Positions 323-14,802 are shown, counted from the stretch's first letter. The stretch: 64,000 nt of DNA from a phage (GCA_024449565.1 GCA_024449565.1_4810.1), one strand, 5' to 3'. Notes: a model not told the origin generated them from the sequence alone. Numbers and translations: made by a program.

Positions 323-394
323 AACTTCCTCTTTAGTTCATATCAAATTAATAATTGCACAGTTTAAATTGCGCTTATTTACAACTATCTTAAT

Positions 395-1247: not shown

Positions 1248-3623
1248 TCAACCTTGCTTCGGTGAATTAGTAGGATTATTGAGTGCTCCATATGCTTGAG
1301 AGCAATCACCTTTCAACCACTCCTTGAATGAGTTTACATCTAATTCATGGATTGAATCGAATCCGTTCCAACCGTTACCAAATGATGCCTGATAAGCTTC
1401 TTTCGCTTCTTCTGCTGAATCGAATCCAAGCATACACTTGTGCTCATCAAATTCACCAGAATAATTATCATTTTGGTTAACGATGAATACTTTAGGAGAC
1501 TTCATATTTGGGCCAACAAAACAGTCGACTTCATCACCATCAGCACCCTTGGTGCCTTTGATGAATCCGTAGTGGTGCGGCATTTTGACTGCCCATTCAC
1601 CATCAAGGCTGTTACCCCTACGAATGCTGTTGCGAGGATTCTCGATGCCAAGGATCATCCCGTGCAACTTCATCTTAGGCAGCGACGCGGCATCCATCTT
1701 CCCTACGTTGTGGCGTAAGTTGATGACGTGTCCTTTAACGCTTGGAAGGGTAGACGGTTGCACCGACCGTGAATCTTTTTGAGGGTCAAAATCCACATCC
1801 TGACCCTCTTTCAGGTAGTAATCCGCAATACCCTCCAGACCTTCTTTCAACTGCGTTAGGACATCAACCTGATGGCTTGATTCATCATCGGTATCGTCCA
1901 TGTTGATTTCGACAGGCGCTTTGTCAGGGTTTTCCGCCAACTCACCACGCGCGGCACCCTCTGGCATAATACCTGTTTCGCTATAGAACTGGCCGCCCAT
2001 CTTAACGACATCAGCTTTCGCCTGTTCAATAGCGGCCTTACCTTGCAGGACTTCACCAGCAGACTTGCCAAGCAATGCCATATTCTCTGGAGACATCCCT
2101 GGGGTTTCTTCTGCTGCGTCTTCCGGCAGACGGTTGTAGCCGCTGTTTTTGTCGTCTTTGATGCGGTCGCGCTCTTCATCAGGAGAAATGACGCCAGCAT
2201 CAATAAGAGTTTTGCCAGTGTTGGCTCGCTTATCATTGATTTCTGCAAGTTGAGTAGCAGTAAGTGAGCCAACTGGTTCCCATGCAACCTTAACATCGAC
2301 GTCCACCCCTTCTGATTTGAGAAGGATTTTGTAATGGCGGTCGAGAATTTTTGTCAGGTCATGCTGCTGGCACGTTTCCAACTCTTCGTGATAGCTGACC
2401 ATCTCGAATTCACCAGTGGCGTTAAAGCCTTTTGGCGAAGTCCCAAGCAGTTTGGTCGACGGAACTTTTGCGATTGCGGCCACAAGCTGGTACTGGTTCA
2501 TGATGATACTGTCGAAGTCTGACAAGTTGATGTCAAACTGGTCCATCTCTTCTTTTTGGCCAAGCACTTTGACTGCATAGTTGTCGCGGTACTTGATCCA
2601 CATCATCAGACGTTCTGCAAAAGACCGCTCATTGGCAATAGCCTTGTCAACGTCGGTCCGCAGCGTCGTTGTACGCTTGGACATCGCCAGCAATGGCGCT
2701 TCGTTAGCGGTACGTTCAGCGGCATAGATGCGTTCATAAATCTGCTGAGTCAGAGGAATGCCGCCGTAAATATAAGTCGGCTTGAGAATATCAGCTGGCT
2801 CATCATTGCGCAAGATGATGAGGTGACTTCGATGATAACGTTGTCCGCTGATCACCCAGTATTCTGGATCATAGAAGTGCTGTGATGCAGGGTCTGCGGT
2901 ATTTTCAGACGTCAAAAATGGCATCATCCAATAAGGGTCAACCTGAATGATTCCCTTATAAGACCCCTTTGTCACACCATCAATGTTAAAAGGCTTGCTG
3001 TAATATTCTGGGTCATCGCTACGCACATCAAATATGATGACGCGGATACCAAAAATATTTTTGAATCGTTCGGCTTCAACTAAGTGCTCTTTGATATTAA
3101 ATTCTTTATCAATTTGCTTTAGGCGTTCGCTTGCCTGCACTGACAATTCTGACTCAGAACTGGATTTGACTTCCCAACCTTTACGGACCGCATCGCGGCC
3201 TACCATGGAACACGCCTTGTTCACCAGCCAATGCTGTGCGATGATGGCACAAGCTTGATAGCCGATGAATGACTGTGACAAATACCAGTTTTGAAGTTGA
3301 ATAGGTACTGTGTATGGGTTGACCTGCCCTTCTGAACTAATGTTCTTTAAGGCATTGTCCATAACTTTTTTGGATACTGTTGCGGAATCGACTGAACGGC
3401 CTTTTATGATAGCAACACCGTCGCCATTAATATCAGGCTCATATAAAGGGAAGTCATCAACCGTTTTAAAGGTCGGTCGATTGCTTTCAGTCTTTTCCCA
3501 GCGTTGACCGCTGCCGCGCCTTTCAAGGCGTTCAAACGGTGCCAATGGGTCGCCTGGCGGCATCTCCGCTGGTTCGGCTTCTGGTTGCGTCTTCTCCCAG
3601 AGTTTTATGCCAAGAATTTTCAT
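1248..3623 (-). CDS. portal protein with C-terminal inorganic-pyrophosphatase-like domain
   Basis: Large ORF between terminase and Mu F-like gene; ATG at 3623 with AGGTGG SD (track ORF begins at an upstream TTG); C-terminal about 190 aa contain MPHHYGFIKGTKGADGDEVDCFV and AEEAKEAYQASF, matching the family I pyrophosphatase core. Confidence 0.6.
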   Translation of the reverse strand: MKILGIKLWEKTQPEAEPAEMPPGDPLAPFERLERRGSGQRWEKTESNRPTFKTVDDFPLYEPDINGDGVAIIKGRSVDSATVSKKVMDNALKNISSEGQVNPYTVPIQLQNWYLSQSFIGYQACAIIAQHWLVNKACSMVGRDAVRKGWEVKSSSESELSVQASERLKQIDKEFNIKEHLVEAERFKNIFGIRVIIFDVRSDDPEYYSKPFNIDGVTKGSYKGIIQVDPYWMMPFLTSENTADPASQHFYDPEYWVISGQRYHRSHLIILRNDEPADILKPTYIYGGIPLTQQIYERIYAAERTANEAPLLAMSKRTTTLRTDVDKAIANERSFAERLMMWIKYRDNYAVKVLGQKEEMDQFDINLSDFDSIIMNQYQLVAAIAKVPSTKLLGTSPKGFNATGEFEMVSYHEELETCQQHDLTKILDRHYKILLKSEGVDVDVKVAWEPVGSLTATQLAEINDKRANTGKTLIDAGVISPDEERDRIKDDKNSGYNRLPEDAAEETPGMSPENMALLGKSAGEVLQGKAAIEQAKADVVKMGGQFYSETGIMPEGAARGELAENPDKAPVEINMDDTDDESSHQVDVLTQLKEGLEGIADYYLKEGQDVDFDPQKDSRSVQPSTLPSVKGHVINLRHNVGKMDAASLPKMKLHGMILGIENPRNSIRRGNSLDGEWAVKMPHHYGFIKGTKGADGDEVDCFVGPNMKSPKVFIVNQNDNYSGEFDEHKCMLGFDSAEEAKEAYQASFGNGWNGFDSIHELDVNSFKEWLKGDCSQAYGALNNPTNSPKQG

Positions 3624-3728
3624 TGTTAACGCCACCTGACAGTGAAAGGGAATCAATCTATATTATAAATATTCATGTGTTTGTAAGCAAATGATATGTA
3701 TGGTGATCATAAATAGTTCATAAAATAT

Positions 3729-3757
3729 TTTGCTTTTGTATCATTTTGAGTTATATT
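3729..3757 (+). promoter_or_regulatory. sigma70-like promoter TTTGCT-17-TATATT
   Basis: Hexamers with 17-bp spacer about 30 nt upstream of the 3786 ATG. Confidence 0.4.
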
Positions 3758-3785
3758 TTAGTTAACCAAACGAAAGGAGATTGAA

Positions 3786-4202
3786 ATGAGCACAACAATT
3801 GTATTTGTCGTCCTACACAACGGCGAAGTCGTTAACGTATGCGAATATGAAGAACTGGCAAAGGCCACTGCTGCGAGATACGAAGGTGCTACTATTGACC
3901 CGTGGATTTTAGATGCGCGCAGCGTCTTGCAGGCGACTTTAGATGAGTGGTTGTTGGGTCGCAAGGTCTATCCAGTAGACAACATCGACTCAATTCAAGG
4001 CGAAACAGTATACTTTGAAGATGAATGCGTTCGCGGCATCGGCAAATTTATGGGATTGTGCCCATCTTCATCCAAAAATAAATTCTATCGTATTCAAGTT
4101 GAAGAAAACGATATGTTTGATAAAGTCACGCGCTCGATTGTTCCTGGCGGCGGAACTCCAATCTTTATGGCAGAATCAGACATCAAGGGGATTATCAAAT
4201 GA
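3786..4202 (+). CDS. hypothetical protein
   Basis: AAAGGAG SD 7 nt upstream of ATG; plus-strand gene inserted between minus-strand terL and portal. Confidence 0.5.
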   Translation: MSTTIVFVVLHNGEVVNVCEYEELAKATAARYEGATIDPWILDARSVLQATLDEWLLGRKVYPVDNIDSIQGETVYFEDECVRGIGKFMGLCPSSSKNKFYRIQVEENDMFDKVTRSIVPGGGTPIFMAESDIKGIIK

Positions 4203-4438
4203 GAACTTTAACCGAACTCGATGTTTTGAAAGACGTTGCAGCGGCGCTGGGCGTTGAAGTCTCTGAAAAGTCGACACTGGGTGCTCTGCGTCGTGATTTA
4301 CTCGAAGCCGTCGACCGCAACGATTTTGATCGTAAGTGTTTGCAAAAGAAGATTCGACAGGCAGTAAGGGCGGGTAAGCGATTCCGTGCCAGGTCGTTTG
4401 CCGCAAGAAAGCTCGACCTTCAGCACGGAATGCTTTAA
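4199..4438 (+). CDS. hypothetical protein
   Basis: ATGA overlap with upstream gene; basic C-terminus; a 9-bp stem (4381-4389 / 4423-4431) lies in its 3' end. Confidence 0.4.
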   Translation: MRTLTELDVLKDVAAALGVEVSEKSTLGALRRDLLEAVDRNDFDRKCLQKKIRQAVRAGKRFRARSFAARKLDLQHGML

Positions 4439-4441
4439 TTG

Positions 4442-5902
4442 TTAAAGGTTAGAGAAGAAGCCGGATGCTGCAACAATTGGTTTCATCAACGCCATGATTG
4501 CTGCGTCCGCTTTGTTAGGCGATTTGACTCCACGCTTTGCCATATCCTTTTTCGATTCAACTTTAAACTTACCAAGCACAGACGTGTCTTTGCGCGGCGC
4601 TGACATCTCAAAAAGAAATGTCTCAATTTCTTCCGCAGACCAAGCAGGAATCCCAAGTTCTGGAATGCCGTCTGTGTCGATGGAAATCAGCTCATCAGTC
4701 GGGTATACGGCCTGCCCTGTTGCATACTCATATGTCTTCCTGAATCGTTCGGCAATCTCAGTCCATTTTTGCGCTTTTATGTTTGCGAAATGGTCTTTAT
4801 TGAGTATTTCAACGTGTGGTAACTCAAGGAAGACGTCATCAGGATCATCAACAGCACCTTGCGCGTTGAACGCATTAAATTCGATTCTTGGGAATGTTGG
4901 ATTTTCATGGATTGCATACTCATTAAGCTCATCAAATTTTGAACCAGCAAATGCACCAACACCGATGGCGTCATAGGTAATTGATGCGCCGAATGTTAAT
5001 GCATCTTTCCAAACTCCGCTTGCGGACTTAAGCAATTCATCTTCCAGACCTTCCCATGTCTTGATGCCGCGCAATACGTTGCCCGTGACAAATGCTGTGG
5101 CGTTTAAGTCGTCGCCGTCGTCCGCCACGTCGAAGCCTATACGGTTAGACCCTGACAAGCTCCATCCCAGCGTAGGGTGTTTGTGGAGGTTTAGCGCGGC
5201 TTTGACGAATGCACGGTTGATTACAGATTTGTCGCCGCCAGTCTTCGGAACGCCGCCATAAACGTGCTCTGCCTTTTTTGGGTCGCGCTCGTACATGCCT
5301 GCGATAACGTCCAGCATTGTTTGCGACAAGAATGGATTATCTTGCCAGTTTATCTTTTTAACAATGGCATTCTTCGGCGGTCGCATAACAAAGTTCTGGT
5401 AGACAAAATCGGCCTCTTCATCAGGGTTAAAGATGATCCATATTTCTGACCCTTCTTTACGGATTGTTGGCTCAATAATGTCCCACTGTTCTTCAGTAAG
5501 CGCGTGCGCTTCTTCCAGCCAAAGTACGTCAACACCTTCCGTTGATTTGATTTCATCAACATTACGTGCGATACCATAAAATAGAAATTCAGATTTAGTT
5601 CTTTTATGTTCGATAGAGTTCTTTAATAAATTGAACTCATCTTTGAAATCAGAAATTTCTATTTTGTCTTTTAATAGAGTATATACAGATTCAGAAATCT
5701 TGTTCTGGAATTGTCGAACGCAAAGGAATTTTAATTTGAAGTTTGCCGCCAAATAAATAGCAAAACCAGCGGCATCATGCGATTTGGAAGATGCACGACC
5801 GCCGTATATTACTTTGTATCGCGCTTTCGTCTTCCAGACTTCTTTTAAAGCAGGATTCAACTGGTACATGACTTTCCAATTATGTGTTAGTATTTTATTC
5901 AT
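4442..5902 (-). CDS. terL: terminase large subunit
   Basis: Walker A GGRASSKS near N-terminus, ATPase plus nuclease two-domain length (486 aa), position upstream of portal. Confidence 0.9.
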   Translation of the reverse strand: MNKILTHNWKVMYQLNPALKEVWKTKARYKVIYGGRASSKSHDAAGFAIYLAANFKLKFLCVRQFQNKISESVYTLLKDKIEISDFKDEFNLLKNSIEHKRTKSEFLFYGIARNVDEIKSTEGVDVLWLEEAHALTEEQWDIIEPTIRKEGSEIWIIFNPDEEADFVYQNFVMRPPKNAIVKKINWQDNPFLSQTMLDVIAGMYERDPKKAEHVYGGVPKTGGDKSVINRAFVKAALNLHKHPTLGWSLSGSNRIGFDVADDGDDLNATAFVTGNVLRGIKTWEGLEDELLKSASGVWKDALTFGASITYDAIGVGAFAGSKFDELNEYAIHENPTFPRIEFNAFNAQGAVDDPDDVFLELPHVEILNKDHFANIKAQKWTEIAERFRKTYEYATGQAVYPTDELISIDTDGIPELGIPAWSAEEIETFLFEMSAPRKDTSVLGKFKVESKKDMAKRGVKSPNKADAAIMALMKPIVAASGFFSNL

Positions 5903-5910
5903 ATTATAGT

Positions 5911-5939
5911 TTGCTTGTACAATCTATATCAAGTAAAAT
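5911..5939 (+). promoter_or_regulatory. sigma70-like promoter TTGCTT-17-TAAAAT
   Basis: Hexamers with 17-bp spacer; about 40 nt upstream of an intrinsic terminator. Confidence 0.35.
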
Positions 5940-5978
5940 TATGATTCCAGCTTAGTAGTGGATAAAGGGTGATCTTTC

Positions 5979-6006
5979 GGCCAGATTCTTTCTGGCCATT
6001 TTTTTT
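5979..6006 (+). terminator. rho-independent terminator
   Basis: GGCCAG-ATTCTTT-CTGGCC hairpin followed by an 8-T run. Confidence 0.55.
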
Positions 6007-6026
6007 GATTAAAATTCACAAAAAGT

Positions 6027-6054
6027 TTGCCTTTCTGAAATTCTGCATTATAAT
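6027..6054 (+). promoter_or_regulatory. sigma70-like promoter TTGCCT-16-TATAAT
   Basis: Near-consensus hexamers about 27 nt upstream of the 6081 ATG. Confidence 0.5.
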
Positions 6055-6080
6055 CATATTAACTCAAAACCGGAGGTAAT

Positions 6081-6296
6081 ATGAAACTCATCGACCGCGC
6101 CATCAAAGCCATTGATAATCACTCCACAGCGATTGCTTTCGTAATGGGATTTTGTTTCACTGCTGCGTTTGGCGACGTTCACACATTCAAGTCTGTCATC
6201 TTGTGTTGGTCCATTTGGTCACTTATTTCTCTGGTTTTGATTCTTCCGATGACGTGGCTTGTTCTTACTTGTCTTGAATCTCAAGGTGAAGACTGA
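6081..6296 (+). CDS. small membrane protein, two predicted TM helices (holin-like topology)
   Basis: GGAGGT SD; two hydrophobic segments in 71 aa. Confidence 0.45.
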   Translation: MKLIDRAIKAIDNHSTAIAFVMGFCFTAAFGDVHTFKSVILCWSIWSLISLVLILPMTWLVLTCLESQGED

Positions 6297-6517
6297 TGAG
6301 ACTATCAATCAAAGAGCGGGCAAAGCGGCCCAAAAGGAGTGAGCCAAAGGCCAAATACACATGCGTTGGCGGACCGTTCGACGGTCAAGTGGTGTGGCTT
6401 TCAAAATCTAATCCATCGACGGTTGAGTTCAGCCTTCGTGGAATGCGCGGCAGATACCTGCTAAATAGAGAAACAAGTGGCAGCACATTTGTGGAGTGGA
6501 AAGAAAATGGCAAATGA
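6296..6517 (+). CDS. hypothetical protein
   Basis: Start overlaps upstream stop; AGGTGAAG SD. Confidence 0.4.
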   Translation: MRLSIKERAKRPKRSEPKAKYTCVGGPFDGQVVWLSKSNPSTVEFSLRGMRGRYLLNRETSGSTFVEWKENGK

Positions 6518-6740
6518 ATTAACCTTAACGGTGCCAAAAGAAGTGCTAGACAAGGCATATGCAGATTCTGTAAAAGAATTAGCCGTAGTGCTTGGAATTG
6601 AAAGTGAATTCAACGTTCAGCTTCAATTCCTAAAAGATACTCTTCAAATCAAAGAGAATAGAGAGGCTGGCGGCGGTGCGCCTTTAGCTTTGGCAATAAT
6701 CTATGCGGGATTAATTTTGAAGTCTGGAGATGAACTGTGA
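6507..6740 (+). CDS. hypothetical protein
   Basis: Start trimmed to ATG MANELTL with GGAGTGGA SD. Confidence 0.4.
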   Translation: MANELTLTVPKEVLDKAYADSVKELAVVLGIESEFNVQLQFLKDTLQIKENREAGGGAPLALAIIYAGLILKSGDEL

Positions 6741-6936
6741 ATCGTTGGTGCAGTTGGAAGTTGAAACGTCTTGCCTGGGCCAATGCCGCCAATTCTGCTG
6801 GTGTCATCACCGCTGGCGTTGGGTCGGTATGGGATGGCGAAGGCCGTTGGGACTCGCTGTGTGGCACGCGCCTATTCTTTCGCGTAAAATAATTATCGCC
6901 CTTCCCGAAATGGGAAGGGAATTTAAAGAGGTTATC

Positions 6937-7278
6937 ATGAACAACACTTTGTCACAACTGTTAATCTGGACTATCGCTGCTATCATCGGCACCGTTATTA
7001 TGATGTCAAGTGCAAAGGCTGAAACGGATATTTGCGGCAGACTTATTTCTGAAAACGGCGAAATTTATTATGGCAACTCAAAAGGTGATTATATATCGCC
7101 TGAAGTTTGCGCTCAGAAGAAAGCAGAAATGCAAAAGCAGTATCATGAAGATCAATCTATATCTCAAGCCGCGCTGATTGAATTAAGTATATCAGCCATC
7201 ATCTTTCTAATCGTTTTTATGCTCATTATTAAACCAAATAATGGCAGCCACCGTCATATTCCTCTCAAAAGAAATTAA
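6937..7278 (+). CDS. small membrane or secreted protein
   Basis: Start trimmed to ATG MNNTLSQ with AAAGAGG SD; N-terminal hydrophobic signal-like segment and C-terminal TM segment. Confidence 0.45.
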   Translation: MNNTLSQLLIWTIAAIIGTVIMMSSAKAETDICGRLISENGEIYYGNSKGDYISPEVCAQKKAEMQKQYHEDQSISQAALIELSISAIIFLIVFMLIIKPNNGSHRHIPLKRN

Positions 7279-7316
7279 GGTTATAATACGGTTGTCGACA
7301 AAACGAGGACCGTAAA

Positions 7317-9227
7317 ATGCCAAGGCTAATATTCAAAAACAACTTTGAGGTCGCGCTCGCTCAGCCAGCGACGACTTCAGACACCACAATCACAATCCGC
7401 TCAGGGTCGGGCTTTCCGACCTTGGGCGCAAACGAGCGTGTAGTGGCGACAGTCGTCGACGCTGCAACAGGCCTCCAATTCGAAATCATCACTGTAACAG
7501 CCGTGGTTGGAAACGTGCTAACCGTGCAGCGTGCACAGGAAGGGACTGCAGCGCGTGCATGGAGCGTCGGAGATTTTTTATCCATAAGGGTGACGGCTGC
7601 CATATTGACAAGCACAGTAAGGAATTTTGGAGAATTACCTTCTGGAATAAACTTAAATGCCCTTACTGGTTCTTGGTTCGGTCAATACCAGCAGTCTTCT
7701 AATTCTGCGGCTTCGCAAGTTCTGAATTATCCTGTAGCCCAATCAGGCAGCCTTGAGGTTATTTGCTCGGCAAACAACTCTGGTGACCAATCTTGCACGC
7801 AAATATACAGCACGAATCCTGACAACAAGCAGTACAAAAGAACTTATAATTCAGAAACAAGCACATGGTCTACTTGGGCTAAAATATATAACTCTTCCGA
7901 CGTGATTCCAGTCTCCAATGGAGGGACTGGTGTTTCAGACATAGGATCAATAAGAAGAGCAATATTGGTGCAAGGACTTGAATGTAATGATCAAACTGGT
8001 CCCCAATCATACAACAGCTATCGTTCACCAAATTCAGCATACACATGGAAAATAGATAACTCAGGACTTGTGCAAGTCATAAAGACTTCTGATGGTTCTG
8101 CAGTGCCAATACCTATTGAATCAGGAGGGACTGGTGGAATAACTGCTTATAGTGCAAGGGTTAATCTCTCTTTGGATAGGCTGCGCCAAGAAGGTGCTTA
8201 TACAGAACTGAATTCTGCGAACGGAAGATATAGATTTCTTGTAAATGATTCAGGAGATTGGGGAGGTTTTGATGGTTCCACAAACGGCTGGAAGCCATTG
8301 GCAATAGCGCAGGGAGGGACTGGATCAACCACGTTGGAAGGAGCAAGAACGAATCTGAAAATTGACAGGTTCTTGCAAGGTGATATTGATACAAAAATAT
8401 CAACGCCTGATTCGCAATACAACTTTTTCATCACTGACGCTGATTGGGGTCTTTATGATGTAACATCACTAAATAGAGTTGCACTCCCAATTGTCAGCGG
8501 CGGCACAGGCGGAGTAACTGCTGTTGAATCTTGCAAGTCTCTCGCAGCGATGCATTATAAATACCCAGCGCAAACATCATTTGGGCAGCAATACATGGAG
8601 ACTGGGGTTGGATATTACAGCACTGATCAGTCACCAAGTCCAGGTGGAAGCGGTTCTCCATATAACTATGCCGAGATACTTACTATATCTGAATTTGGTA
8701 ATGGAGCTAACTATTCTCAAATCGCATTTTCAGTGTTGACGGAACAACCGCCGCGATACAGACAAAGGTTTGACTCTAATCCAAGGTTGACTAATTGGCG
8801 AGATTTCCTTATTCGCGATTTGAATACCAGCGTAGACAGCAACGGATTCATAAAAATTGCTTCACCAATAGTCAAAATAAGATTTGATGGATCATTTGAG
8901 CTGAACAGCGAGTCAGAAGGCTGCACAGTGTCAAGAGAAGGAAAGGGGCACTATTTGATAAGCGGTTGCCTCGGATTAAATAGTGATGCCGCCTGGGGAG
9001 GCGTTAACGGCGGCTTTGAAATTCCAGTTGATGTGAATAAACAGCCTAGAATTTGGCTTGACTATAAAGTGAATGAAGATGGATCAGTTGACGTATTCAC
9101 ATATCACAGGGTGCACAATGATGCCCCAGTTTTTGCAAGGAATAACCTTGAAGGTTATGCAGACGGAGACCCAATAGACATACCAAAGGATGCATTTATC
9201 TCTGTGAGGGTGCAAATGCCAAAATAA
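7317..9227 (+). CDS. tail fiber protein (GGTG-repeat type)
   Basis: Four repeats of the (S/E/A/V)-GGTG-x-(S/T) motif (SNGGTGVSD, ESGGTGGIT, AQGGTGSTT, VSGGTGGVT) typical of phage tail fibers; GAGGA SD. Confidence 0.7.
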   Translation: MPRLIFKNNFEVALAQPATTSDTTITIRSGSGFPTLGANERVVATVVDAATGLQFEIITVTAVVGNVLTVQRAQEGTAARAWSVGDFLSIRVTAAILTSTVRNFGELPSGINLNALTGSWFGQYQQSSNSAASQVLNYPVAQSGSLEVICSANNSGDQSCTQIYSTNPDNKQYKRTYNSETSTWSTWAKIYNSSDVIPVSNGGTGVSDIGSIRRAILVQGLECNDQTGPQSYNSYRSPNSAYTWKIDNSGLVQVIKTSDGSAVPIPIESGGTGGITAYSARVNLSLDRLRQEGAYTELNSANGRYRFLVNDSGDWGGFDGSTNGWKPLAIAQGGTGSTTLEGARTNLKIDRFLQGDIDTKISTPDSQYNFFITDADWGLYDVTSLNRVALPIVSGGTGGVTAVESCKSLAAMHYKYPAQTSFGQQYMETGVGYYSTDQSPSPGGSGSPYNYAEILTISEFGNGANYSQIAFSVLTEQPPRYRQRFDSNPRLTNWRDFLIRDLNTSVDSNGFIKIASPIVKIRFDGSFELNSESEGCTVSREGKGHYLISGCLGLNSDAAWGGVNGGFEIPVDVNKQPRIWLDYKVNEDGSVDVFTYHRVHNDAPVFARNNLEGYADGDPIDIPKDAFISVRVQMPK

Positions 9228-9235
9228 TTCACTCA

Positions 9236-9260
9236 AGGCGCTGAAAAGCGCCTTTACTTT
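9236..9260 (+). terminator. putative intrinsic terminator
   Basis: AGGCGC-TGAAAA-GCGCCT hairpin followed by a T-rich tract after the tail fiber stop. Confidence 0.4.
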
Positions 9261-9310
9261 ATGCGCTATTAAGTTATACTCATTATACGTTAACAAGTGA
9301 GGTGAATGAA

Positions 9311-9592
9311 ATGAAATTTGAAGACATCGACAAGGCCCAAAAAGCAAAGGCGCTGCCTAAATATGTCATCTGTGGTATTGACCCTGAAGATAACCGCTTG
9401 GTTTTCTTAAAGCAAGTTGATAGCAATGAATCTGGCGACGCAGCTAATTGGTGCACCCCTTTGTTTGAGACAGCAGAAGAAGCCCAGAAGGTATTGTCAG
9501 AAAGCAATTTACCTAAACACTACAGTGTCGTTTCACAAGATGACATGGCAAAATTAGTGTTTAATTTTTATGGATATGGGAGAAGATTCTAA
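9311..9592 (+). CDS. hypothetical protein
   Basis: Start trimmed to ATG at 9311, 6 nt after GAGGTG SD. Confidence 0.45.
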   Translation: MKFEDIDKAQKAKALPKYVICGIDPEDNRLVFLKQVDSNESGDAANWCTPLFETAEEAQKVLSESNLPKHYSVVSQDDMAKLVFNFYGYGRRF

Positions 9593-9801
9593 TGGAAATT
9601 AAATTATTGTCTGATTTCGTAAAAAGTATTGAAGCCAAAGGCATGACAATCAAGGCTAAGAAAGGCGGCCTTGTTTGCATCGATAAGCAACAAAGTGATC
9701 AGAGTATATCTCTTGATGATATCAAGACAATGCAAAAGCTCAATAAGAAAGGTGATTTACACAAGTTCTTAACGGATATTGGAGCGGTGGACAATGGATA
9801 A
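9592..9801 (+). CDS. hypothetical protein
   Basis: Start overlaps upstream stop; GGGAGAAG SD. Confidence 0.45.
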   Translation: MEIKLLSDFVKSIEAKGMTIKAKKGGLVCIDKQQSDQSISLDDIKTMQKLNKKGDLHKFLTDIGAVDNG

Positions 9802-9892
9802 AGAGGCACGGCGCTTTGCATTTTGGGGCACGGTTTGTGTTGTCGCGCTGTTTGGAATTGCTTATGCAATTGTTTACGCTGCAGCGGCATAG
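9794..9892 (+). CDS. small membrane peptide (32 aa, below track cutoff)
   Basis: GGAGCGGTGG SD then ATG; MDKEARRFAFWGTVCVVALFGIAYAIVYAAAA with one TM segment; its stop abuts the next ATG. Confidence 0.3.
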   Translation: MDKEARRFAFWGTVCVVALFGIAYAIVYAAAA

Positions 9893-9894
9893 TT

Positions 9895-10290
9895 ATGATC
9901 ATCGATATTGAAAAGGCACTCAAGCGTGAATTGACGCCAGGTGCGACCCCTGGCGAAGAAGCCTACTACCGACCGAAAGCGCAGCGCACCAATGAGATTC
10001 CGGTTGTTAAGCGGACAGTGAATAAGAACGGTCAGAGGTCGCGACCGCGCTCTATCCGGTCCGGTGAAAGGCTGAAAACGATTCGCCAGTGTCTACAACG
10101 ACTCGAAATCATGGGTTGCCGCGCTTATATCGACCCTGATGGAAAGGTTCTGGTGAGAATTGGCAATAGTACACAACTACAAGACGGATTGCCCTGTGGC
10201 GAATCCAGACCCATAGCAAAGACCGACCGTGTGGCTACTGGCCGCGAGATTGAGGAAAGTTGGTTGGGTGCTTTCTTATTAAAATATTGA
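9895..10290 (+). CDS. hypothetical protein
   Basis: Start trimmed to in-frame ATG MIIDIEK adjacent to upstream stop. Confidence 0.4.
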   Translation: MIIDIEKALKRELTPGATPGEEAYYRPKAQRTNEIPVVKRTVNKNGQRSRPRSIRSGERLKTIRQCLQRLEIMGCRAYIDPDGKVLVRIGNSTQLQDGLPCGESRPIAKTDRVATGREIEESWLGAFLLKY

Positions 10291-10297
10291 GGATTAT

Positions 10298-10546
10298 ATG
10301 AATCAAAATGAATCAGTAGCGTTCTTACAATGGCTGGAAGGTGTTGTGGAGTATTACGCTCCAAAAGACCGTTTCATCTTTCAAGGCAAAAGTTATAAGC
10401 GCAAAGGACAGGCCCAGAAAGCTGCGCGCAAGTACTGGAAAGAAGTTTATTCAGAGTTCTTTCAGCAGATGGGCATCATCGGCTCGACCGTATCCGGCGA
10501 CCCAGCACAGTTGGTATCGATTGATGAATCCAATCGTCACAATTAA
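10298..10546 (+). CDS. hypothetical protein
   Basis: GAGGAT SD 5 nt upstream of ATG. Confidence 0.45.
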   Translation: MNQNESVAFLQWLEGVVEYYAPKDRFIFQGKSYKRKGQAQKAARKYWKEVYSEFFQQMGIIGSTVSGDPAQLVSIDESNRHN

Positions 10547-10621
10547 TAAATCGATTTGAATGCCGCGCTATGCGGCTTTATTATAGTTATTGTTAATCAC
10601 CCAAATATTGAAGGTAATGAT

Positions 10622-11002
10622 ATGTCAAATAAAAATGATTCTGTGAGTCACACATATACTAAAGGCAGCGGCATTGCTTTTGGTTCCAGCATCAAAATTG
10701 ACGCTCCACCTTGCTATTCTGATGGATTGGAAGTTGGCAACCGCGACTTAACATGGGTTTTACGTCGCCAATCCGATTTAGAAGAGAAGCTGGAAAATAT
10801 TGAGCGTTCTCTTGAAAGTCTTCGCGACCAGCTTTTTGGTTGTCCTGAAGATGAGTCAAAACCTGAATCATATGCAGCCAATCGCGGTTTGATTGATAAT
10901 ATGCTTGCTATTACCGCTCGATCAATTGGTAAAACTGTGTCCATTGAATCATTGATCAGCCAGATTGCGGATGGCTTTGGTGATGCCCATAAGAGCGAAT
11001 AG
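10622..11002 (+). CDS. hypothetical protein
   Basis: Start trimmed to ATG MSNKND with GAAGGTAA SD. Confidence 0.45.
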   Translation: MSNKNDSVSHTYTKGSGIAFGSSIKIDAPPCYSDGLEVGNRDLTWVLRRQSDLEEKLENIERSLESLRDQLFGCPEDESKPESYAANRGLIDNMLAITARSIGKTVSIESLISQIADGFGDAHKSE

Positions 11003-11032
11003 TGGGTGGATGTTGCTTTAACCGTGAATCGT

Positions 11033-11059
11033 GGGTCGCTTAGTGCGGCCCTTTATTTT
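11033..11059 (+). terminator. putative intrinsic terminator
   Basis: GGGTCGC-TTAGT-GCGGCCC hairpin followed by TTTATTTT. Confidence 0.45.
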
Positions 11060-11062
11060 GCC

Positions 11063-11134
11063 TGCCGCGCAGGAGTGTACTGCCGCGCAGGAGTGTACTG
11101 CCGCGCAGGAGTGTACTGCCGCGCAGGAGTGTAC
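11063..11134. repeat. perfect tandem repeat, 4 x 18 bp (TGCCGCGCAGGAGTGTAC)
   Basis: Four identical head-to-tail units read directly from the sequence; a partial fifth unit follows. Confidence 0.9.
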
Positions 11135-11755
11135 TGCAAATTTCCTGTGGGTACAAAATAGTACGGTACTGTCTAGGACTTTTTCTTTGAAAAGTTAGTG
11201 GACCAAATGTGTCGTATTTTGATTAGTGTACCGCAAATTCCATCAAGTAGCAAAACGCACCAAAAGACCCATGCCCTAAAAACCACACGAACGCAATAAT
11301 CAATCGCCGTTACAGTTTCCAGCGTTACAATTAGAAAGCGAATGATTCGATGCATAATAATATGAAGCATAATGATTCGAAAGCTAATGGTTGCGCGTAG
11401 GATGATATCGGGAGGGATTATTCGAGATGCGTGTAATTTCGCATGCGTACTATTTTCGGGCGAAGGGTCGGCATATTCTTCGTTTTAGCTCGGAACGAAG
11501 GGAAAGTTTTGCGCCTTTATAAAACAACGACTTACGCGACCCGCCTTAACGGTCCGATATAGGTGTCTATATAAAACAAGGACTTACGCGATGTTCTCCA
11601 TTTAACGTAATACCTGTTATGCGAACTAAGGCGCATCTCGACGAAGATTGTGCGACGACGAAGGGAAGGATAAAGGAGTTTTCGCGTAGGAGCTCATCGA
11701 GATAGGGACGAAGAAAAGCCGCGACTAAGCGCGGCCTATTAGTAACGGAAGGGTA

Positions 11756-12046
11756 TTATAAGGAGACGATTTTAAAGAAAGAGTAACGGCCTTCGCCTTC
11801 GGATACCGCGATATATTCGCCGCCGAACTCCGTAGCAAAATAAACCTTGCCTTCGATAGTAACGCGGAAGGTAGAAATATCTTCCTCTTCGAGTTCCGTA
11901 AATTCGCTAAAATCGATAGGACTATGAAGCTCCTCGATAGTCGCATCTACGTTAAAGAGATAAACGTTTTTAAGTTTTTCGCCAAATACGTTAGAGTTTT
12001 CGGAAGTTTCGACGCGAGCGGAACGGATAGCGGCCAAAGTAATCAT
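11756..12046 (-). CDS. small acidic protein, paralog family member 1
   Basis: AGGAGA SD; 96 aa, acidic; N-terminus MITLAAIRSARVE and NVDATIEE resemble those of the 12682 and 12154 genes. Confidence 0.5.
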   Translation of the reverse strand: MITLAAIRSARVETSENSNVFGEKLKNVYLFNVDATIEELHSPIDFSEFTELEEEDISTFRVTIEGKVYFATEFGGEYIAVSEGEGRYSFFKIVSL

Positions 12047-12153
12047 AATATTCTCCTAGTTAGTCGGGAGGGTAGCGACCTATTCGCTACCTCATCCCCT
12101 CTCGATATAAAACATTATAGTCTTAGTGTACGAAGAAGTAAAGCACTTTTTCG

Positions 12154-12456
12154 TTATTCTGCGATAAAATATTTATAAGCTTTATCGCCTTCTACGTCGA
12201 TATACTCGACGATAATTAACGCTTCGCCGCGCGGCGTAACCGTCTCGATAAGGGTAACGGCTTCGTCGTCGGTCTTCGCGAAGCGGATTGCGCTACGTTC
12301 GGCGTACTTAATATCATCGAAGGAAAGGCCGACGAAAGCGACCGCGCGGACCTTAATAATGGTAGATTCTAGTTCCGCGTTAACGGCAGCGATAAGAGAG
12401 CGAACGGTTAAACGGTCTTCGTCGTAAGTAAGGATAGAAGAGATTAAAGTAGTCAT
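12154..12456 (-). CDS. small acidic protein, paralog family member 2
   Basis: Start trimmed to ATG MTTLISS with GGGAG SD; same N-terminal pattern as neighbours. Confidence 0.45.
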   Translation of the reverse strand: MTTLISSILTYDEDRLTVRSLIAAVNAELESTIIKVRAVAFVGLSFDDIKYAERSAIRFAKTDDEAVTLIETVTPRGEALIIVEYIDVEGDKAYKYFIAE

Positions 12457-12681
12457 AATAAAACTCCCGATGCTAGTAGAAGGAAGGGCCATCACCCGTC
12501 TCGATACAAACAAGTATACGCGAGTGTACGAAGAAGTAAAGAAAAAAGATAAAATAATTTATCTCATTTTTATCGAAAAAGTGCTTTACTTTTTTCTACA
12601 CTATATTATAATGTACTCATATCGGGACGGGATGAGTTAACGAATAGGTCGTTAACGCCCGTCGAGAACTAGGAGTTTAAA

Positions 12682-12966
12682 ATGGCTATTCTTAACGTTT
12701 CTTCCATCCGTAACGCTATCGTCGAGAACTACGGCGTAAAACAAATTTTATCCGAAGTTTACGCCGCGAACGTAGACCAAACTATCGAGGCGGGTGGGGT
12801 AACGGTCGCCGAGGCTTTTAAACTTTACGCGGCGCTACCGGAATCGGACCGCGAAGCCTTCGAAGTAAACGTTAACGGATACTTCTTCGAAGCGGTCGAA
12901 ATCGGTAACATCTTACTCGTTATGGGCGAAGAAGAATTTGATACCTTCTCCCTCGTCGAAGCGTAA
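12682..12966 (+). CDS. small acidic protein, paralog family member 3
   Basis: AGGAG SD; MAILNVSSIRNAIVE and NVDQTIEA shared with the 11756 gene. Confidence 0.5.
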   Translation: MAILNVSSIRNAIVENYGVKQILSEVYAANVDQTIEAGGVTVAEAFKLYAALPESDREAFEVNVNGYFFEAVEIGNILLVMGEEEFDTFSLVEA

Positions 12967-13046
12967 GAGAGGATTTTTAGAGCGTCGTGCGCGGCGCTTT
13001 AATAAAATTCTTTCGCGCCTAGCGCCCTAACAAATAGGAGTTCATT

Positions 13047-13673
13047 ATGGTTAGCTTAAATCGTTTCTCGACTAGCGGCGACGTTATCGCAACTAAGACC
13101 GCCGACCTCGTTGCATTTTATAATGCAAATTCAGGTTCGAAGCCGATTAAAAAATTTGCGGACCGCCGGACCGCCGAGACTCGCGTAATCGCGCTAATCG
13201 AGTCCTTAAACGCGCTCGATGAGCCGTCCAACGAATCGCCAATCCCCGACGCGAAGCCGCGCGAGGAAGTGTCCAGCGATGTAAAAACGCATAAGGCGCG
13301 TGCGGTCGTTAAAAAGGCAGAGCCGACGCAGGAAGAACTCGACGCGATGAGCGATGAAGAGTATGAAGCCTTCGTTAAGAGCGGCTTAAACGATAGTGCA
13401 AATTGCGTAGTGCAAAATGGAACTCCTTCCCATCGCCGTTCGAATAGCGAAGGTATTGCAAAAAGTTGGGACAATAAGGAAGTGGCGCAAAAGCGTCTCA
13501 CCCGTAACGGCGTTATGGTCGAGGGTGTAGGAGAGTTCAAATCGGTCCGCGCAGCTTTCGCCGCGCTGGGATTACCGGATAGCAAGCACATTCGCTTCCG
13601 TATGAAGCTTAAGGAAGCTGGGCGCTTGAACTTCGAGTTCGGCAACAAGTCCTTTACCTTCCAGATTATCTAA
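13047..13673 (+). CDS. hypothetical protein
   Basis: AGGAG SD; 208 aa; contains two in-frame copies of the TAGTGCAAA(A)T motif. Confidence 0.5.
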   Translation: MVSLNRFSTSGDVIATKTADLVAFYNANSGSKPIKKFADRRTAETRVIALIESLNALDEPSNESPIPDAKPREEVSSDVKTHKARAVVKKAEPTQEELDAMSDEEYEAFVKSGLNDSANCVVQNGTPSHRRSNSEGIAKSWDNKEVAQKRLTRNGVMVEGVGEFKSVRAAFAALGLPDSKHIRFRMKLKEAGRLNFEFGNKSFTFQII

Positions 13674-13723
13674 TCGAATGGCGGCCCTTCGGGGTCGCTT
13701 TTCATAGTGCAAATTGGTGGCTT

Positions 13724-13987
13724 ATGAATACGCTTATTCTCATCGCTACGTTGTCCATCGGAAGTGGTCGCACCTTATCCCTTTATGACCATAGTGCAAA
13801 TTGCGCCTATCCTACGCGCGTTGCGGCGATAGTTAATAGTGCAAATAAGATGCTATTCGAGACTTGCTGGAGGGTCGATAACGAGAAAGGTCGGGTAGTC
13901 TTAGGCTATAGTGCAAATCTGCTGGTGGAGTCGTTCGATTGGACGGTTGAAGGTCGTAAATTGTTACGTAAAGTGACTAAAAGATGA
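13724..13987 (+). CDS. hypothetical protein (questionable; ORF spans three motif copies)
   Basis: ORF with GGTGG upstream, but three ATAGTGCAAAT copies fall in-frame inside it, so coding status is uncertain. Confidence 0.3.
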   Translation: MNTLILIATLSIGSGRTLSLYDHSANCAYPTRVAAIVNSANKMLFETCWRVDNEKGRVVLGYSANLLVESFDWTVEGRKLLRKVTKR

Positions 13988-14101: not shown

Positions 14102-14575
14102 CTAGTGGCGGGAGAATTGCTCTCCTTCTTTGGCCGCCTCTCCAAAATCCTTGTAGAAATCATCCATGGAACGGCCCATTTTACTATTGCCATTTTCATC
14201 AATCATCGTGATGCCGTAGATGATATTCAGTTCACGAATGGCATTAAGTTTGGCTGATGCCGCGACTTCTGGATCACGCACAAGCTTCACTAGATTGTGG
14301 ATGGAACTCTTTACGCTCCACAATTCCTTCAATGGCATCTCTTCCATACGCTTTTTGTAGCGCATCTTGTAGTACGGATTGCGCTGAGTGCACAGGATTC
14401 GCTGGCCAGTGTAGTTATCGGTCGCAACCTCCATGCCAAATACTAGTGCAAAAGCTGCGCGCATGTCATGGCCTTGAATAACAAGGTCAATGAACTCATC
14501 GAATAATGCCTGATTATGCTCTGCAAATCGCGGGTCTTCAAAGTCTTCAGGCATTGCTACATAATCTTGACTCAT
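14102..14575 (-). CDS. hypothetical protein (possible HTH DNA-binding; small-terminase-like is speculative)
   Basis: Start trimmed to ATG MSQDYVA; the start codon lies inside a motif copy; helix-rich N-terminal segment FIDLVIQGHDMRAAFALVFG. Confidence 0.4.
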   Translation of the reverse strand: MSQDYVAMPEDFEDPRFAEHNQALFDEFIDLVIQGHDMRAAFALVFGMEVATDNYTGQRILCTQRNPYYKMRYKKRMEEMPLKELWSVKSSIHNLVKLVRDPEVAASAKLNAIRELNIIYGITMIDENGNSKMGRSMDDFYKDFGEAAKEGEQFSRH

Positions 14576-14802
14576 AGTGCAAATCCCATAGTGCAAATTA
14601 ATAGTGTGAATTATACAATGAATGAACATTATATTCAAGTGCAGATTGATGTTCAAATTGGCTGTAAACGTACATAAATCATAGTGCTAAATGAATAGCG
14701 GACCGTGATGCGTGGTGTACTGTTTGATACGTATAAAAGAAATCCATCCCTTTCGCCGCTTGCTATGCAAATCAATGACTTAGCCGCTGCTGGCTGGTTG
14801 AA

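What the first reader, a model, noticed from the sequence alone, without database searches (positions are those of the whole stretch)
3786..4438. Two plus-strand genes inserted between terL and portal on the minus strand
Large terminase and portal are normally adjacent and co-transcribed. Here a divergent promoter region (3624-3785) and two plus-strand genes split them, ending in a hairpin just before the terL stop. This looks like a moron-type insertion.
Basis: inference. Interest (0 to 1): 0.4.

Follow-up and report, generated by a model that had tools for sequence, protein, structure and literature searches.

The report
Conserved two-gene cassette between terL and portal
The two opposite-strand genes between the large terminase and portal genes of this E. 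coli Wifcevirus phage are real, but they are the shrunken remnant of an old accessory-gene cassette that all PB1-like phages carry at this spot, not a recent 'moron' insertion.

Summary
Two translationally coupled plus-strand genes, gA (3786-4202, 138 aa) and gB (4199-4438, 79 aa), lie between portal (1248-3623, minus) and terL (4442-5869, minus). A 162-bp AT-rich divergent control region precedes them, and a 9+6-bp hairpin (4381-4431) lies at the convergent junction with terL.

The 'moron-type insertion' reading does not hold.
- Both genes are in all 29 Wifcevirus genomes and in every metagenomic relative examined.
- Their base composition is normal.
- They are under purifying selection (dN/dS 0-0.10 within the genus).
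- No relative examined has terL next to portal. Each has an opposite-strand cassette there: Wifcevirus 2 genes, a sister lineage 4, Kylevirus 5, Vibrio JSF39 6, Myosmarvirus 7, Pbunavirus 14-16.

gA is the positional orthologue of the first cassette gene as far out as Pbunavirus (phrog_5124). gB recurs in Kylevirus-like phages, flanked by a trypsin-like protease gene and a DUF2786/DUF7168 gene that Wifcevirus has lost.

The true TerS is elsewhere (14102-14656).

Function is inferred only: a host-sigma70-transcribed, non-virion accessory operon. gA has a small beta-barrel domain and gB is SAP/HeH-like with a basic tail. Ordinary; low interest.

The parts
1248..3623 (-). Portal gene (791 aa) with a C-terminal InPase-like domain. 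First gene of the head-morphogenesis operon.
   Evidence: Pfam Phage_portal_3 E=3.4e-88 and InPase E=2.1e-46. phrog_4660/146. Annotated as portal / minor head protein in relatives.
3624..3785 (.). 162-bp AT-rich divergent control region between portal and gA.
   Evidence: 27.8% GC. Nearly invariant in close relatives. Shows conserved blocks in the divergent relatives L012 and L015 (alignment A5).
3662..3690 (-). Predicted sigma70-like promoter for portal: -35 TTGCTT (3690-3685), 17-nt spacer, -10 TATAAT (3667-3662).
   Evidence: Both hexamers are conserved in alignment A5. The equivalent site was detected independently in L015 (TTGATT-17-TATAAT) and in Kyle (TTGATT-18-TATAAT). The phage 14-1 record annotates a sigma70 promoter upstream of its portal gene. 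Prediction only.
3730..3757 (+). Predicted sigma70-like promoter for gA-gB: -35 TTGCTT, 16-nt spacer, -10 TATATT.
   Evidence: Hexamers conserved in the window, L006, L012 and L015. The scan of L015 reports TTGACT-16-TATAGT at the aligned position. Prediction only. An alternative candidate, CTGACA-17-TATATT at 3636-3664, is not conserved in L015.
3786..4202 (+). gA, 138 aa. N-terminal beta-beta-alpha-beta module, a disordered linker, and a C-terminal small SH3/Sm/Tudor-like beta-barrel. Positional orthologue of the first cassette gene in Kylevirus and Pbunavirus, and possibly JSF39.
   Evidence: - Present in 29/29 Wifcevirus records.
- dN/dS 0.06-0.10.
- phrog_5124 E=1.4e-3; phiKT28_019 is phrog_5124 at 8e-89.
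- BLASTP against phiKT28_019 E=7e-7.
- Kyle gp028 bridges the two: 2.7e-8 to gA and 3.6e-6 to phiKT28_019.
- The HiBiT-tagged gp35 phage is viable (PMC11074155).
4199..4438 (+). gB, 79 aa. Four-helix protein with a SAP/HeH-like N-terminal helix-loop-helix and an Arg/Lys-rich C-terminal part. Translationally coupled to gA (ATGA overlap).
   Evidence: - Present in 29/29 records at 96-100% identity.
- dN/dS 0-0.05.
- Only 4 clusters among 1.84 billion representatives.
- Homologues in L012 (66%), L015, L013, L014 and Kyle gp026, always inside the terL-portal cassette.
4381..4431 (+). Stem-loop at the convergent gB/terL junction, followed on the + strand by GCUUUAAUUGUU. Probable (partial) terminator of the gA-gB transcript.
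   Evidence: Perfect 9-nt arms. Folds on both strands. The outer stem is invariant in 6 relatives, with no informative covariation. It is absent from the gB gene of L012, where gB is not the last cassette gene. It was not reported by the simple terminator scan.
4442..5869 (-). terL (475 aa from ATG 5869; the longest ORF starts at 5902). A lone minus-strand gene flanked by plus-strand cassettes.
   Evidence: Terminase_3 E=3.2e-37. 64% identical to Pbunavirus TerL, with alignments starting at residue 12. Mansfield annotates the 475-aa form.
5903..5932 (-). Predicted sigma70-like promoter for terL: TTGATA-18-TATAAT (11 of 12 matches).
   Evidence: The same element is at the same place in L015 (TTGATT-18-TATAAT), L012 and Kyle (TTGAAA-18-TATAAT).
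5979..6007 (+). Plus-strand intrinsic-terminator-like hairpin plus T-run, between the divergent terL promoter and the cassette-1 promoter.
   Evidence: Positional equivalents in L012 (13601-13618, with one compensatory stem change) and L015 (10769-10796). Its role in stopping plus-strand transcription that runs antisense through terL is inference.
14102..14656 (-). Small terminase (TerS) homologue. Context: it shows that neither gA nor gB is the missing TerS.
   Evidence: tblastn with E215 gp55 gives 39% identity, E=1e-34. E215 gp55 matches PDB 7UXE 'Small terminase' at E=2.6e-125.

Best explanation
gA and gB form a small, self-contained plus-strand operon. It is the reduced Wifcevirus version of an ancient opposite-strand accessory-gene cassette that sits between terL and portal throughout the PB1-like myophage lineage (Pbunavirus, Myosmarvirus, Kylevirus, Wifcevirus, Vibrio JSF39-like phages).

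**Shown**
- The cassette position is conserved and gA (phrog_5124-like) is its first gene, divergent from portal, in the Wifcevirus-like lineages, Kylevirus and Pbunavirus (the JSF39 link is faint, and no gA homologue was detected in Myosmarvirus).
- The closest outgroups carry gA, a trypsin-like protease, gB, sometimes a 106-aa gene, and a DUF2786/DUF7168 gene.
- Wifcevirus retains only gA and gB, now fused into one translationally coupled pair.
- Both genes are under purifying selection but evolve 5-10 times faster than terL and portal.
- terL, portal and the cassette each have their own conserved sigma70-type promoter.

**Inferred**
- Host RNA polymerase starts at about 3764 from the promoter at 3730-3757, transcribes gA-gB, and is stopped, at least partly, by the stem-loop at 4381-4431 where it meets the convergent terL gene.
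- Any read-through would run antisense across terL to the strong plus-strand terminator at 5979-6007.
- The products are non-virion accessory proteins: gA has a small SH3/Sm/Tudor-like barrel (protein or nucleic-acid binding), and gB has a SAP/HeH-like helix-loop-helix plus a basic tail (nucleic-acid binding).
- They most likely act early or in mid-infection in host takeover or regulation, as do the products of the Pbunavirus cassette, which encodes the RNA-polymerase-alpha-binding protein gp12 of phage 14-1. They are unlikely to act in DNA packaging.
For: **Window identity.** The window is a Wifcevirus: 29 records at 92-96% identity.

**Ubiquity.** gA and gB are in all 29 records. The same layout is seen in metagenomic relatives.

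**Graded series by TerL identity to the window**

| Lineage | TerL identity | Cassette |
|---|---|---|
| L012 | 90.5% | 4 genes |
| L015 / Kyle | ~77% | 5 genes |
| MTx | ~66% | 7 genes |
| phiKT28, 14-1, E215 | 63% | 14-16 genes |
| JSF39 | 54% | 6 genes |

**gA homology to the Pbunavirus first cassette gene.**

**Shared cassette genes.** DUF2786/DUF7168 is in the cassettes of L012, L015, Kyle, MTx, JSF39 and phiKT28 but absent from the window.

**Gene properties.** Normal GC; purifying selection.

**Promoters.** Conserved in relatives.

**Hairpin.**

**TerS is elsewhere.**. PMC9611059 states that E217 TerS lies far from TerL.

**Not virion proteins.** gp34 and gp35 are not among the entries shown of the virion mass-spectrometry list of vB_Eco4M-7 (PMC7048862).

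**Tagging tolerated.** The gp35-HiBiT phage gave 336 plaques against 332 for the untagged phage (PMC11074155).

**Pbunavirus precedent.** 14-1 gp12, which lies in the Pbunavirus cassette, is reported to bind the RNAP alpha subunit, and 14-1 has 26 sigma70-like promoters (PMC10914365).

**Folds.**
Against: - No transcript data exist for any Wifcevirus, so promoter use, timing and termination are all predictions. The 14-1 papers read here give no per-gene timing.
- The gA link to Pbunavirus rests on weak scores (E about 1e-3 to 1e-7) plus synteny. The JSF39 link is weaker still: 1.1e-3 over 41 residues.
- The hairpin lacks a classical U-tract, was not called by the terminator scan, and shows no covariation.
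- The conserved position between two packaging genes is also what a packaging or assembly role would predict.
Confidence: 0.7

Rival explanations
1. Moron-type insertion: a foreign promoter-genes-terminator unit recently dropped between terL and portal genes that were previously adjacent.
For: - The unit has its own predicted promoter and a terminal hairpin, and lies on the opposite strand.
- Cassette content at this locus does change between genera, so the locus tolerates gene gain and loss.
- gA in one sub-lineage (L006, L007) has dS 1.13 against 0.38-0.45 for its neighbours, which hints at allele exchange.
Against: - Present in 29/29 genomes and in all relatives.
- Normal GC and strong purifying selection.
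- No relative has terL adjacent to portal.
- gA has positional orthologues in Kylevirus and Pbunavirus.
- The nearest outgroups have more genes here, not fewer.
Confidence: 0.05
2. Packaging or head-assembly accessory genes. gB would be a DNA-binding helper and gA a terminase-, portal- or prohead-associated factor, kept between terL and portal because they work with them.
For: - The position between terL and portal is conserved across several genera.
- gB looks SAP/HeH-like with a basic tail, so DNA binding is plausible.
- E217-type TerS showed no DNA binding in vitro (PMC9611059), which leaves room for a helper.
Against: - The genes are on the opposite strand with their own promoter.
- gB is absent from Pbunavirus, Myosmarvirus and JSF39, which share the same TerS, TerL and portal.
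- They evolve far faster than the packaging genes.
- They are not in the entries shown of the virion mass-spectrometry list.
- Their cassette neighbours in relatives are a protease, a methyltransferase and an RNAP-binding protein, which are typical takeover genes.
Confidence: 0.12
3. The main role is at the transcript level. Convergent or antisense transcription from the gA promoter insulates the portal operon from terL read-through, or damps terL expression early, and the proteins themselves are secondary.
For: - There is no canonical terminator on the minus strand after terL.
- The hairpin is followed by a weak U-rich tract on the plus strand only.
- A conserved strong plus-strand terminator lies just beyond the 5' end of terL in the window, L012 and L015. 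This makes sense only if plus-strand transcripts cross terL.
Against: - Both ORFs are under clear purifying selection at the protein level and keep their RBS and translational coupling.
- An antisense role would not need conserved proteins.
- No transcript data are available.
Confidence: 0.1

Closest known systems
Pbunavirus (PB1, 14-1, E217/E215, phiKT28) opposite-strand gene block between terL and portal (14-1 gp04-gp17)
   Same: - Same position and orientation: convergent with terL and divergent from portal.
- The first gene, 14-1 gp17 / phiKT28_019 (phrog_5124), is the homologue of gA.
- terL is likewise a lone gene, with TerS about 7-8 kb away behind another opposite-strand block.
- Predicted terminators lie at the terL junction.

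   Different: The Pbunavirus block has 14-16 genes rather than 2. It includes DUF2786/DUF7168, the DUF6011 protein gp12 (an RNAP-alpha binder) and a methyltransferase, and it has no gB homologue.
Kylevirus (Pantoea phage Kyle gp024-gp028) and the metagenomic contigs L015 and L012
   Same: gA homologue first and gB homologue inside the cassette, in the same order and on the same strand. The sigma70-like promoters for terL, portal and the cassette are conserved.
   Different: These carry a trypsin-like protease between gA and gB, a DUF2786/DUF7168 gene overlapping the terL stop codon, and in some cases a 106-aa gene. There is no hairpin at the end of gB.
Morons of lambdoid and other temperate phages (an autonomous promoter-gene-terminator unit inserted between late genes)
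   Same: A compact unit with its own predicted promoter and terminal stem-loop, embedded among morphogenesis and packaging genes.
   Different: It is not sporadic, not compositionally foreign, and not in a temperate phage. Its flanks are not adjacent in any relative, and it is conserved with positional orthologues across genera.
SAP / HeH (LEM, Rho-N-like) helix-extended-loop-helix DNA-binding modules (compared with gB)
   Different: No Pfam SAP or Rho_N match. The scores are low and the model is only moderately confident. gB has two further helices and a basic tail.

Membership tests
Moron (autonomous accessory transcription unit inserted in a phage late region) | Own promoter and terminator flanking the gene(s) | tested here: inconclusive
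   A conserved sigma70-like promoter is predicted at 3730-3757 and a stem-loop at 4381-4431. The hairpin is not a canonical intrinsic terminator, and there are no transcript data.
Moron (autonomous accessory transcription unit inserted in a phage late region) | Sporadic distribution: present in some genomes and absent from close relatives, in which the flanking genes are adjacent | tested here: not met
   Present in 29/29 Wifcevirus records. All metagenomic and cross-genus relatives have a cassette at this place, and none has terL next to portal.
Moron (autonomous accessory transcription unit inserted in a phage late region) | Nucleotide composition differing from the surrounding genome | tested here: not met
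   GC is 44.4% (gA) and 50.4% (gB) against 45.7% for the window, 43.8% for terL and 47.1% for portal. GC3 is similar.
phrog_5124 (Pbunavirus 14-1 gp17 / phiKT28_019-like protein, unknown function) | Significant sequence or profile similarity over most of the protein | tested here: inconclusive
   - gA against phrog_5124: E=1.4e-3, residues 4-98.
- phmmer against phiKT28_019: 1.5e-4.
- Pairwise BLASTP: 7e-7, 25% identity over 93 aa.
- Kyle gp028 bridges the two: 2.7e-8 to gA and 3.6e-6 to phiKT28_019.
- 14 invariant columns over the full length in alignment A3.

Weak but consistent.
phrog_5124 (Pbunavirus 14-1 gp17 / phiKT28_019-like protein, unknown function) | Same genomic position: first gene of the cassette, divergent from portal | tested here: met
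   Window, L012, L015, Kyle, phiKT28, 14-1 and E215; the first cassette gene of JSF39 also hits phrog_5124, but only faintly (1.1e-3 over 41 residues).
Small terminase (TerS) | Homology to a characterised TerS, or being the only candidate in the genome | tested here: not met
   Neither gA nor gB matches any PDB chain convincingly. The E217-type TerS homologue is at 14102-14656.
SAP/HeH DNA-binding domain (gB) | Helix-extended loop-helix fold with the family sequence signature | tested here: inconclusive
SH3-like small beta-barrel (Sm / Tudor / KOW) (gA C-terminal domain) | Five-stranded small barrel fold | tested here: met
Anti-phage defence or known named bacterial protein families | Profile match in PADLOC or NCBIfam | tested here: not met
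   No hits for gA or gB at E<=0.1.

The most novel reading that the evidence does not exclude
gA would be a lineage-wide regulator. It is the one gene that always sits head-to-head with portal, from Pbunavirus to Wifcevirus. In this reading it uses its Tudor/KOW-like barrel to bind host RNA polymerase or nascent RNA. Together with plus-strand transcription that runs antisense through terL to the conserved terminator at 5979-6007, it would time the switch from early cassette expression to terL and portal expression. gB would be a SAP-like DNA-binding partner. This would be a previously undescribed timing device in the therapeutically important PB1-like phages.
Probability: 0.08. Interest if true: 0.5.

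Novelty: new member of a known kind. Interest (0 to 1): 0.2.

Why it matters
- **Annotation.** In PB1-like phages, terS, terL and portal are each separated by opposite-strand accessory cassettes. This non-canonical order is ancestral and is not a sign of recent horizontal insertion.
- **Engineering.** The locus is a conserved hot spot where accessory genes are gained and lost, with gA as a fixed anchor. That is useful for choosing payload sites in Wifcevirus and Pbunavirus therapeutic phages; gp35 (gA) already tolerates a tag.
- **Follow-up targets.** The work picks out two small uncharacterised protein families for study.
- **Limits.** Beyond these points the finding is ordinary.

Tried and rejected
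- **gA or gB as the missing small terminase.** Rejected. E215 gp55 is the E217 TerS (PDB 7UXE), and its homologue in the window is at 14102-14656.
- **phiKT28_012 as TerS or a gB relative.** It is a 195-aa cassette protein with a weak blastp hit to gB (E=0.056). It has no PDB match and belongs to a different PHROG.
- **Database scans for gA and gB.** Pfam, PHROGs, NCBIfam, PADLOC and PDB sequence searches gave nothing significant except the weak phrog_5124 hit.
- **Rfam on 3300-6300.** No match.
- **Covariation in the hairpin.** The outer stem is invariant, and the inner-stem changes are not compensatory. This is uninformative.
- **Inverted repeat 3689-3696 / 3739-3746 as an operator.** The second arm is not conserved in L012 or L015, so it is probably chance in AT-rich DNA.
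- **P0008 as a '73% identical' gA variant.** It is a frameshifted copy, not a distant homologue.
- **DUF2786, trypsin-like or gp12-like genes elsewhere in the window.** None found.
- **Literature.** No temporal expression data for the 14-1 cassette genes or for any Wifcevirus were found. The supplements of PMC10914365 are not held. The E217 terminase paper is not held. The DUF2786 literature is uninformative.
- **tblastn with the intermediate L015 gA.** It did not extend the family beyond Wifcevirus in the isolate collection. The Foldseek search of BFVD did pick up Kyle gp028.

Full report
**What the window is.** The first 8 kb match 29 Escherichia/Shigella phage genomes of the genus Wifcevirus (ECML-117, WFH, WFC, FEC19, vB_Eco4M-7, Bas98-101 and others) at 92-96% nucleotide identity.

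**The observation**

The ORF list and the sequence show the following:
- Portal lies at 1248-3623 on the minus strand (Phage_portal_3 E=3e-88, with a C-terminal InPase domain).
- A 162-bp intergenic region spans 3624-3785.
- gA lies at 3786-4202 (+, 138 aa), with AAGGAG 6 nt upstream of its ATG.
- gB lies at 4199-4438 (+, 79 aa), and its ATG overlaps the gA stop codon.
- Three bases further on is the stop codon of terL (4442-5869 or 5902, minus; Terminase_3 E=3e-37).

The intergenic region is 27.8% GC against 45.7% for the window. A hairpin with perfect 9-nt arms (4381-4389 / 4423-4431) and an inner stem lies in the last codons of gB. The only correction is that the hairpin is inside gB, not after it.

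**Are the genes real?**
- Both are annotated as hypothetical proteins in ECML-117 (gp33, gp32) and Mansfield (023, 022).
- Both are found by tblastn in all 29 Wifcevirus records: gA at 94-100% and gB at 96-100% amino-acid identity.
- Within the genus dN/dS is 0.06-0.10 for gA and 0-0.05 for gB, against 0.003-0.015 for terL and portal. They are functional proteins, but they evolve roughly 5-10 times faster than their neighbours.
- In vB_Eco4M-7 the 138-aa protein (gp35) was chosen for HiBiT tagging. The tagged phage was fully viable, with 336 plaques against 332 for the untagged phage (PMC11074155).
- gp34 and gp35 are not among the entries shown of that phage's virion mass-spectrometry list, whereas gp32 and gp36 are (PMC7048862).

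**Is it an insertion?**

Comparative evidence says no. Every relative I could find has an opposite-strand cassette at exactly this place. It is convergent with terL and divergent from portal. None has terL adjacent to portal. The series, ordered by TerL identity to the window:

| Lineage | TerL identity | Cassette between portal and terL |
|---|---|---|
| Wifcevirus | - | 2 genes: gA, gB |
| L012, a 72.5-kb metagenomic contig | 90.5% | 4 genes: gA (54%), trypsin-like protease, gB (66%), DUF2786/DUF7168 |
| L015 and Pantoea phage Kyle (Kylevirus) | ~77% | 5 genes: gA, protease, gB, a 101-106-aa protein, DUF2786/DUF7168 |
| Serratia phage MTx (Myosmarvirus) | ~66% | 7 genes, including DUF2786/DUF7168 |
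| Pbunavirus (phiKT28, 14-1, E215) | 63% | 14-16 genes, including DUF2786/DUF7168, the DUF6011 protein gp12 and a methyltransferase |
| Vibrio phage JSF39 | 54% | 6 genes, the last being DUF2786/DUF7168 |

In phiKT28, 14-1 and E215 the first cassette gene, the one head-to-head with portal, belongs to phrog_5124 (phiKT28_019, E=8e-89). The evidence linking gA to that family:
- gA hits the same PHROG at E=1.4e-3.
- gA aligns to phiKT28_019 by BLASTP at E=7e-7.
- Kyle gp028 bridges the two, at 2.7e-8 to gA and 3.6e-6 to phiKT28_019.
- The first JSF39 gene also touches phrog_5124, at 1.1e-3.

gB is a much narrower family. An exhaustive phmmer search of 1.84 billion representative proteins found four clusters. 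All of those whose context could be read lie inside this same cassette, downstream of the protease gene.

The window has no DUF2786, protease or gp12 homologue anywhere. The base composition of gA and gB is unremarkable. The parsimonious history is that the Wifcevirus ancestor had gA-protease-gB-DUF2786 and lost two genes, leaving gA fused to gB by an ATGA overlap. This is a reduction, not an insertion.

**The wider layout**

terL is a lone gene in this lineage. The E217-type small terminase (PDB 7UXE, identical in family to E215 gp55) lies about 7 kb upstream of terL in Pbunavirus, behind a block of 19 opposite-strand genes. PMC9611059 notes the separation.

Its homologue in the window is at 14102-14656 on the minus strand (39% identity, E=1e-34). 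It is separated from terL by a plus-strand block, 6081-13987, that includes a tail-fibre gene. So terS, terL and portal share a strand, and each is isolated by an opposite-strand cassette. Neither gA nor gB is the missing TerS.

**Transcription signals (sequence-level predictions only)**

I aligned the control region of the window with those of L006, L012 and L015. Two back-to-back sigma70-like promoters stand out as conserved footprints:
- On the plus strand, TTGCTT-16-TATATT at 3730-3757.
- On the minus strand, TTGCTT-17-TATAAT at 3690-3662, for portal.

The consensus scan of L015 independently reports both at the aligned positions: TTGACT-16-TATAGT and TTGATT-17-TATAAT. Kyle has the portal promoter.

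terL has its own strong promoter, TTGATA-18-TATAAT at 5932-5903. It is conserved in L015, L012 and Kyle. Because its -10 abuts 5902, the real terL start is probably the ATG at 5869, as Mansfield annotates.

The related Pbunavirus 14-1 relies on host RNA polymerase. It has 26 sigma70-like promoters plus 11 with a phage-specific motif. Its gp12, which is encoded in the terL-portal cassette, is reported to bind the RNAP alpha subunit (PMC10914365).

On the plus strand the gB hairpin is followed by a moderately U-rich stretch. On the minus strand it is not, and no canonical terminator follows terL.

A strong plus-strand terminator at 5979-6007 sits between the terL promoter and the next plus-strand promoter. 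Positional equivalents exist in L012, with one compensatory stem change, and in L015. This suggests that some plus-strand transcription crosses terL in antisense. That is inference.

The gB gene of L012, which is not at the end of its cassette, lacks the hairpin. This is consistent with the hairpin serving the convergent junction in Wifcevirus.

**The proteins**
- No Pfam, NCBIfam or PADLOC family matches either protein.

These folds suggest binding to protein or nucleic acid. They do not fix a function.

**Most likely mechanism.** gA and gB are a host-RNAP-transcribed, non-virion accessory operon. By analogy with the Pbunavirus cassette I rate an early or middle role in host takeover or regulation as most likely. 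I give 0.7 to the whole statement, which rests mainly on the well-supported evolutionary and architectural part. The functional part alone deserves about 0.3-0.4.

**Rivals**
- A true moron insertion: 0.05.
- A packaging or assembly accessory role: 0.12. This is suggested by position and by the DNA-binding look of gB. It is weakened by the opposite strand, the fast evolution, the absence of gB from Pbunavirus, Myosmarvirus and JSF39, and the genes' absence from the virion mass-spectrometry entries shown.
- A mainly transcript-level insulation or antisense role: 0.1.

**Verdict.** The feature is an ordinary, lineage-conserved accessory cassette in its most reduced form, encoding two uncharacterised small protein families. 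Interest is low (0.2).

Noticed in passing
window 341-394 (compare L001 840-1759): A 54-bp stretch stands where every relative examined carries a 920-bp gene for a 306-aa head-fibre-like protein (ECML-117 gp36; weak Pfam Phage_head_fibr hit). The relatives include all 29 Wifcevirus records, judged from the piece structure of the matches, and L005, L006 and L012. This phage appears to be a natural deletion variant lacking that gene.
   Followed up: partly
window ~6005-6012 (compare L001 7372-7636): The 76-aa gene just upstream of the terL promoter is absent from the window and from L006 and L007. In relatives it is ECML-117 gp30, probably equivalent to vB_Eco4M-7 gp32, which is listed among virion mass-spectrometry proteins in PMC7048862. 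This gene, unlike gA and gB, really is sporadic among close relatives.
   Followed up: partly
window 14102-14656 (-): Homologue of the E217-type small terminase (PDB 7UXE): 39% identity, E=1e-34. It lies 8.2 kb upstream of terL, behind a plus-strand block that includes a tail-fibre gene. terS, terL and portal are each isolated by opposite-strand cassettes, as in Pbunavirus.
   Followed up: yes
window 5979-6007 (+); L012 13601-13627; L015 10769-10806: A strong plus-strand intrinsic-terminator-like hairpin plus T-run sits between the divergent terL promoter and the cassette-1 promoter. It is conserved in position in two divergent relatives, with a compensatory change in the stem. This implies plus-strand transcription antisense to terL.
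   Followed up: partly
window 5869-5932 (-): The longest terL ORF starts at 5902, but the -10 of the conserved sigma70-like promoter (5908-5903) abuts that codon, and homologue alignments begin at residue 12. The real start is probably ATG 5869, giving 475 aa.
   Followed up: partly
window 1248-3623 (-), residues 660-782 of the product: The portal protein carries a C-terminal InPase domain (PF18823, E=2e-46). The same domain is found in large polyvalent or ejected phage proteins, for example DarB-like PHROGs.
   Followed up: no
L006 6001-6417 and L007 966-1382 versus window 3786-4202: gA in this Wifcevirus sub-lineage has synonymous divergence dS 1.13 from the window. The adjacent gB, terL and portal have 0.38-0.45. 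This suggests allele replacement by recombination at gA.
   Followed up: no
L005 10001-10471: The gA copy on this metagenomic contig is frameshifted after about residue 97, giving a 156-aa product. This is either an assembly error or a pseudogene.
   Followed up: no
L012 10411-11019; L015 7353-7952; L016 (Kyle) 9775-10320: A trypsin-like serine protease gene (Pfam Trypsin_2) overlaps both gA and gB in the sister lineages. It also hits the PADLOC RT-Protease_XI models (about 1e-8) and, much more weakly, the LmuA model (2.4e-4). A phage-encoded protease that resembles protease modules of defence systems may deserve a look.
   Followed up: no
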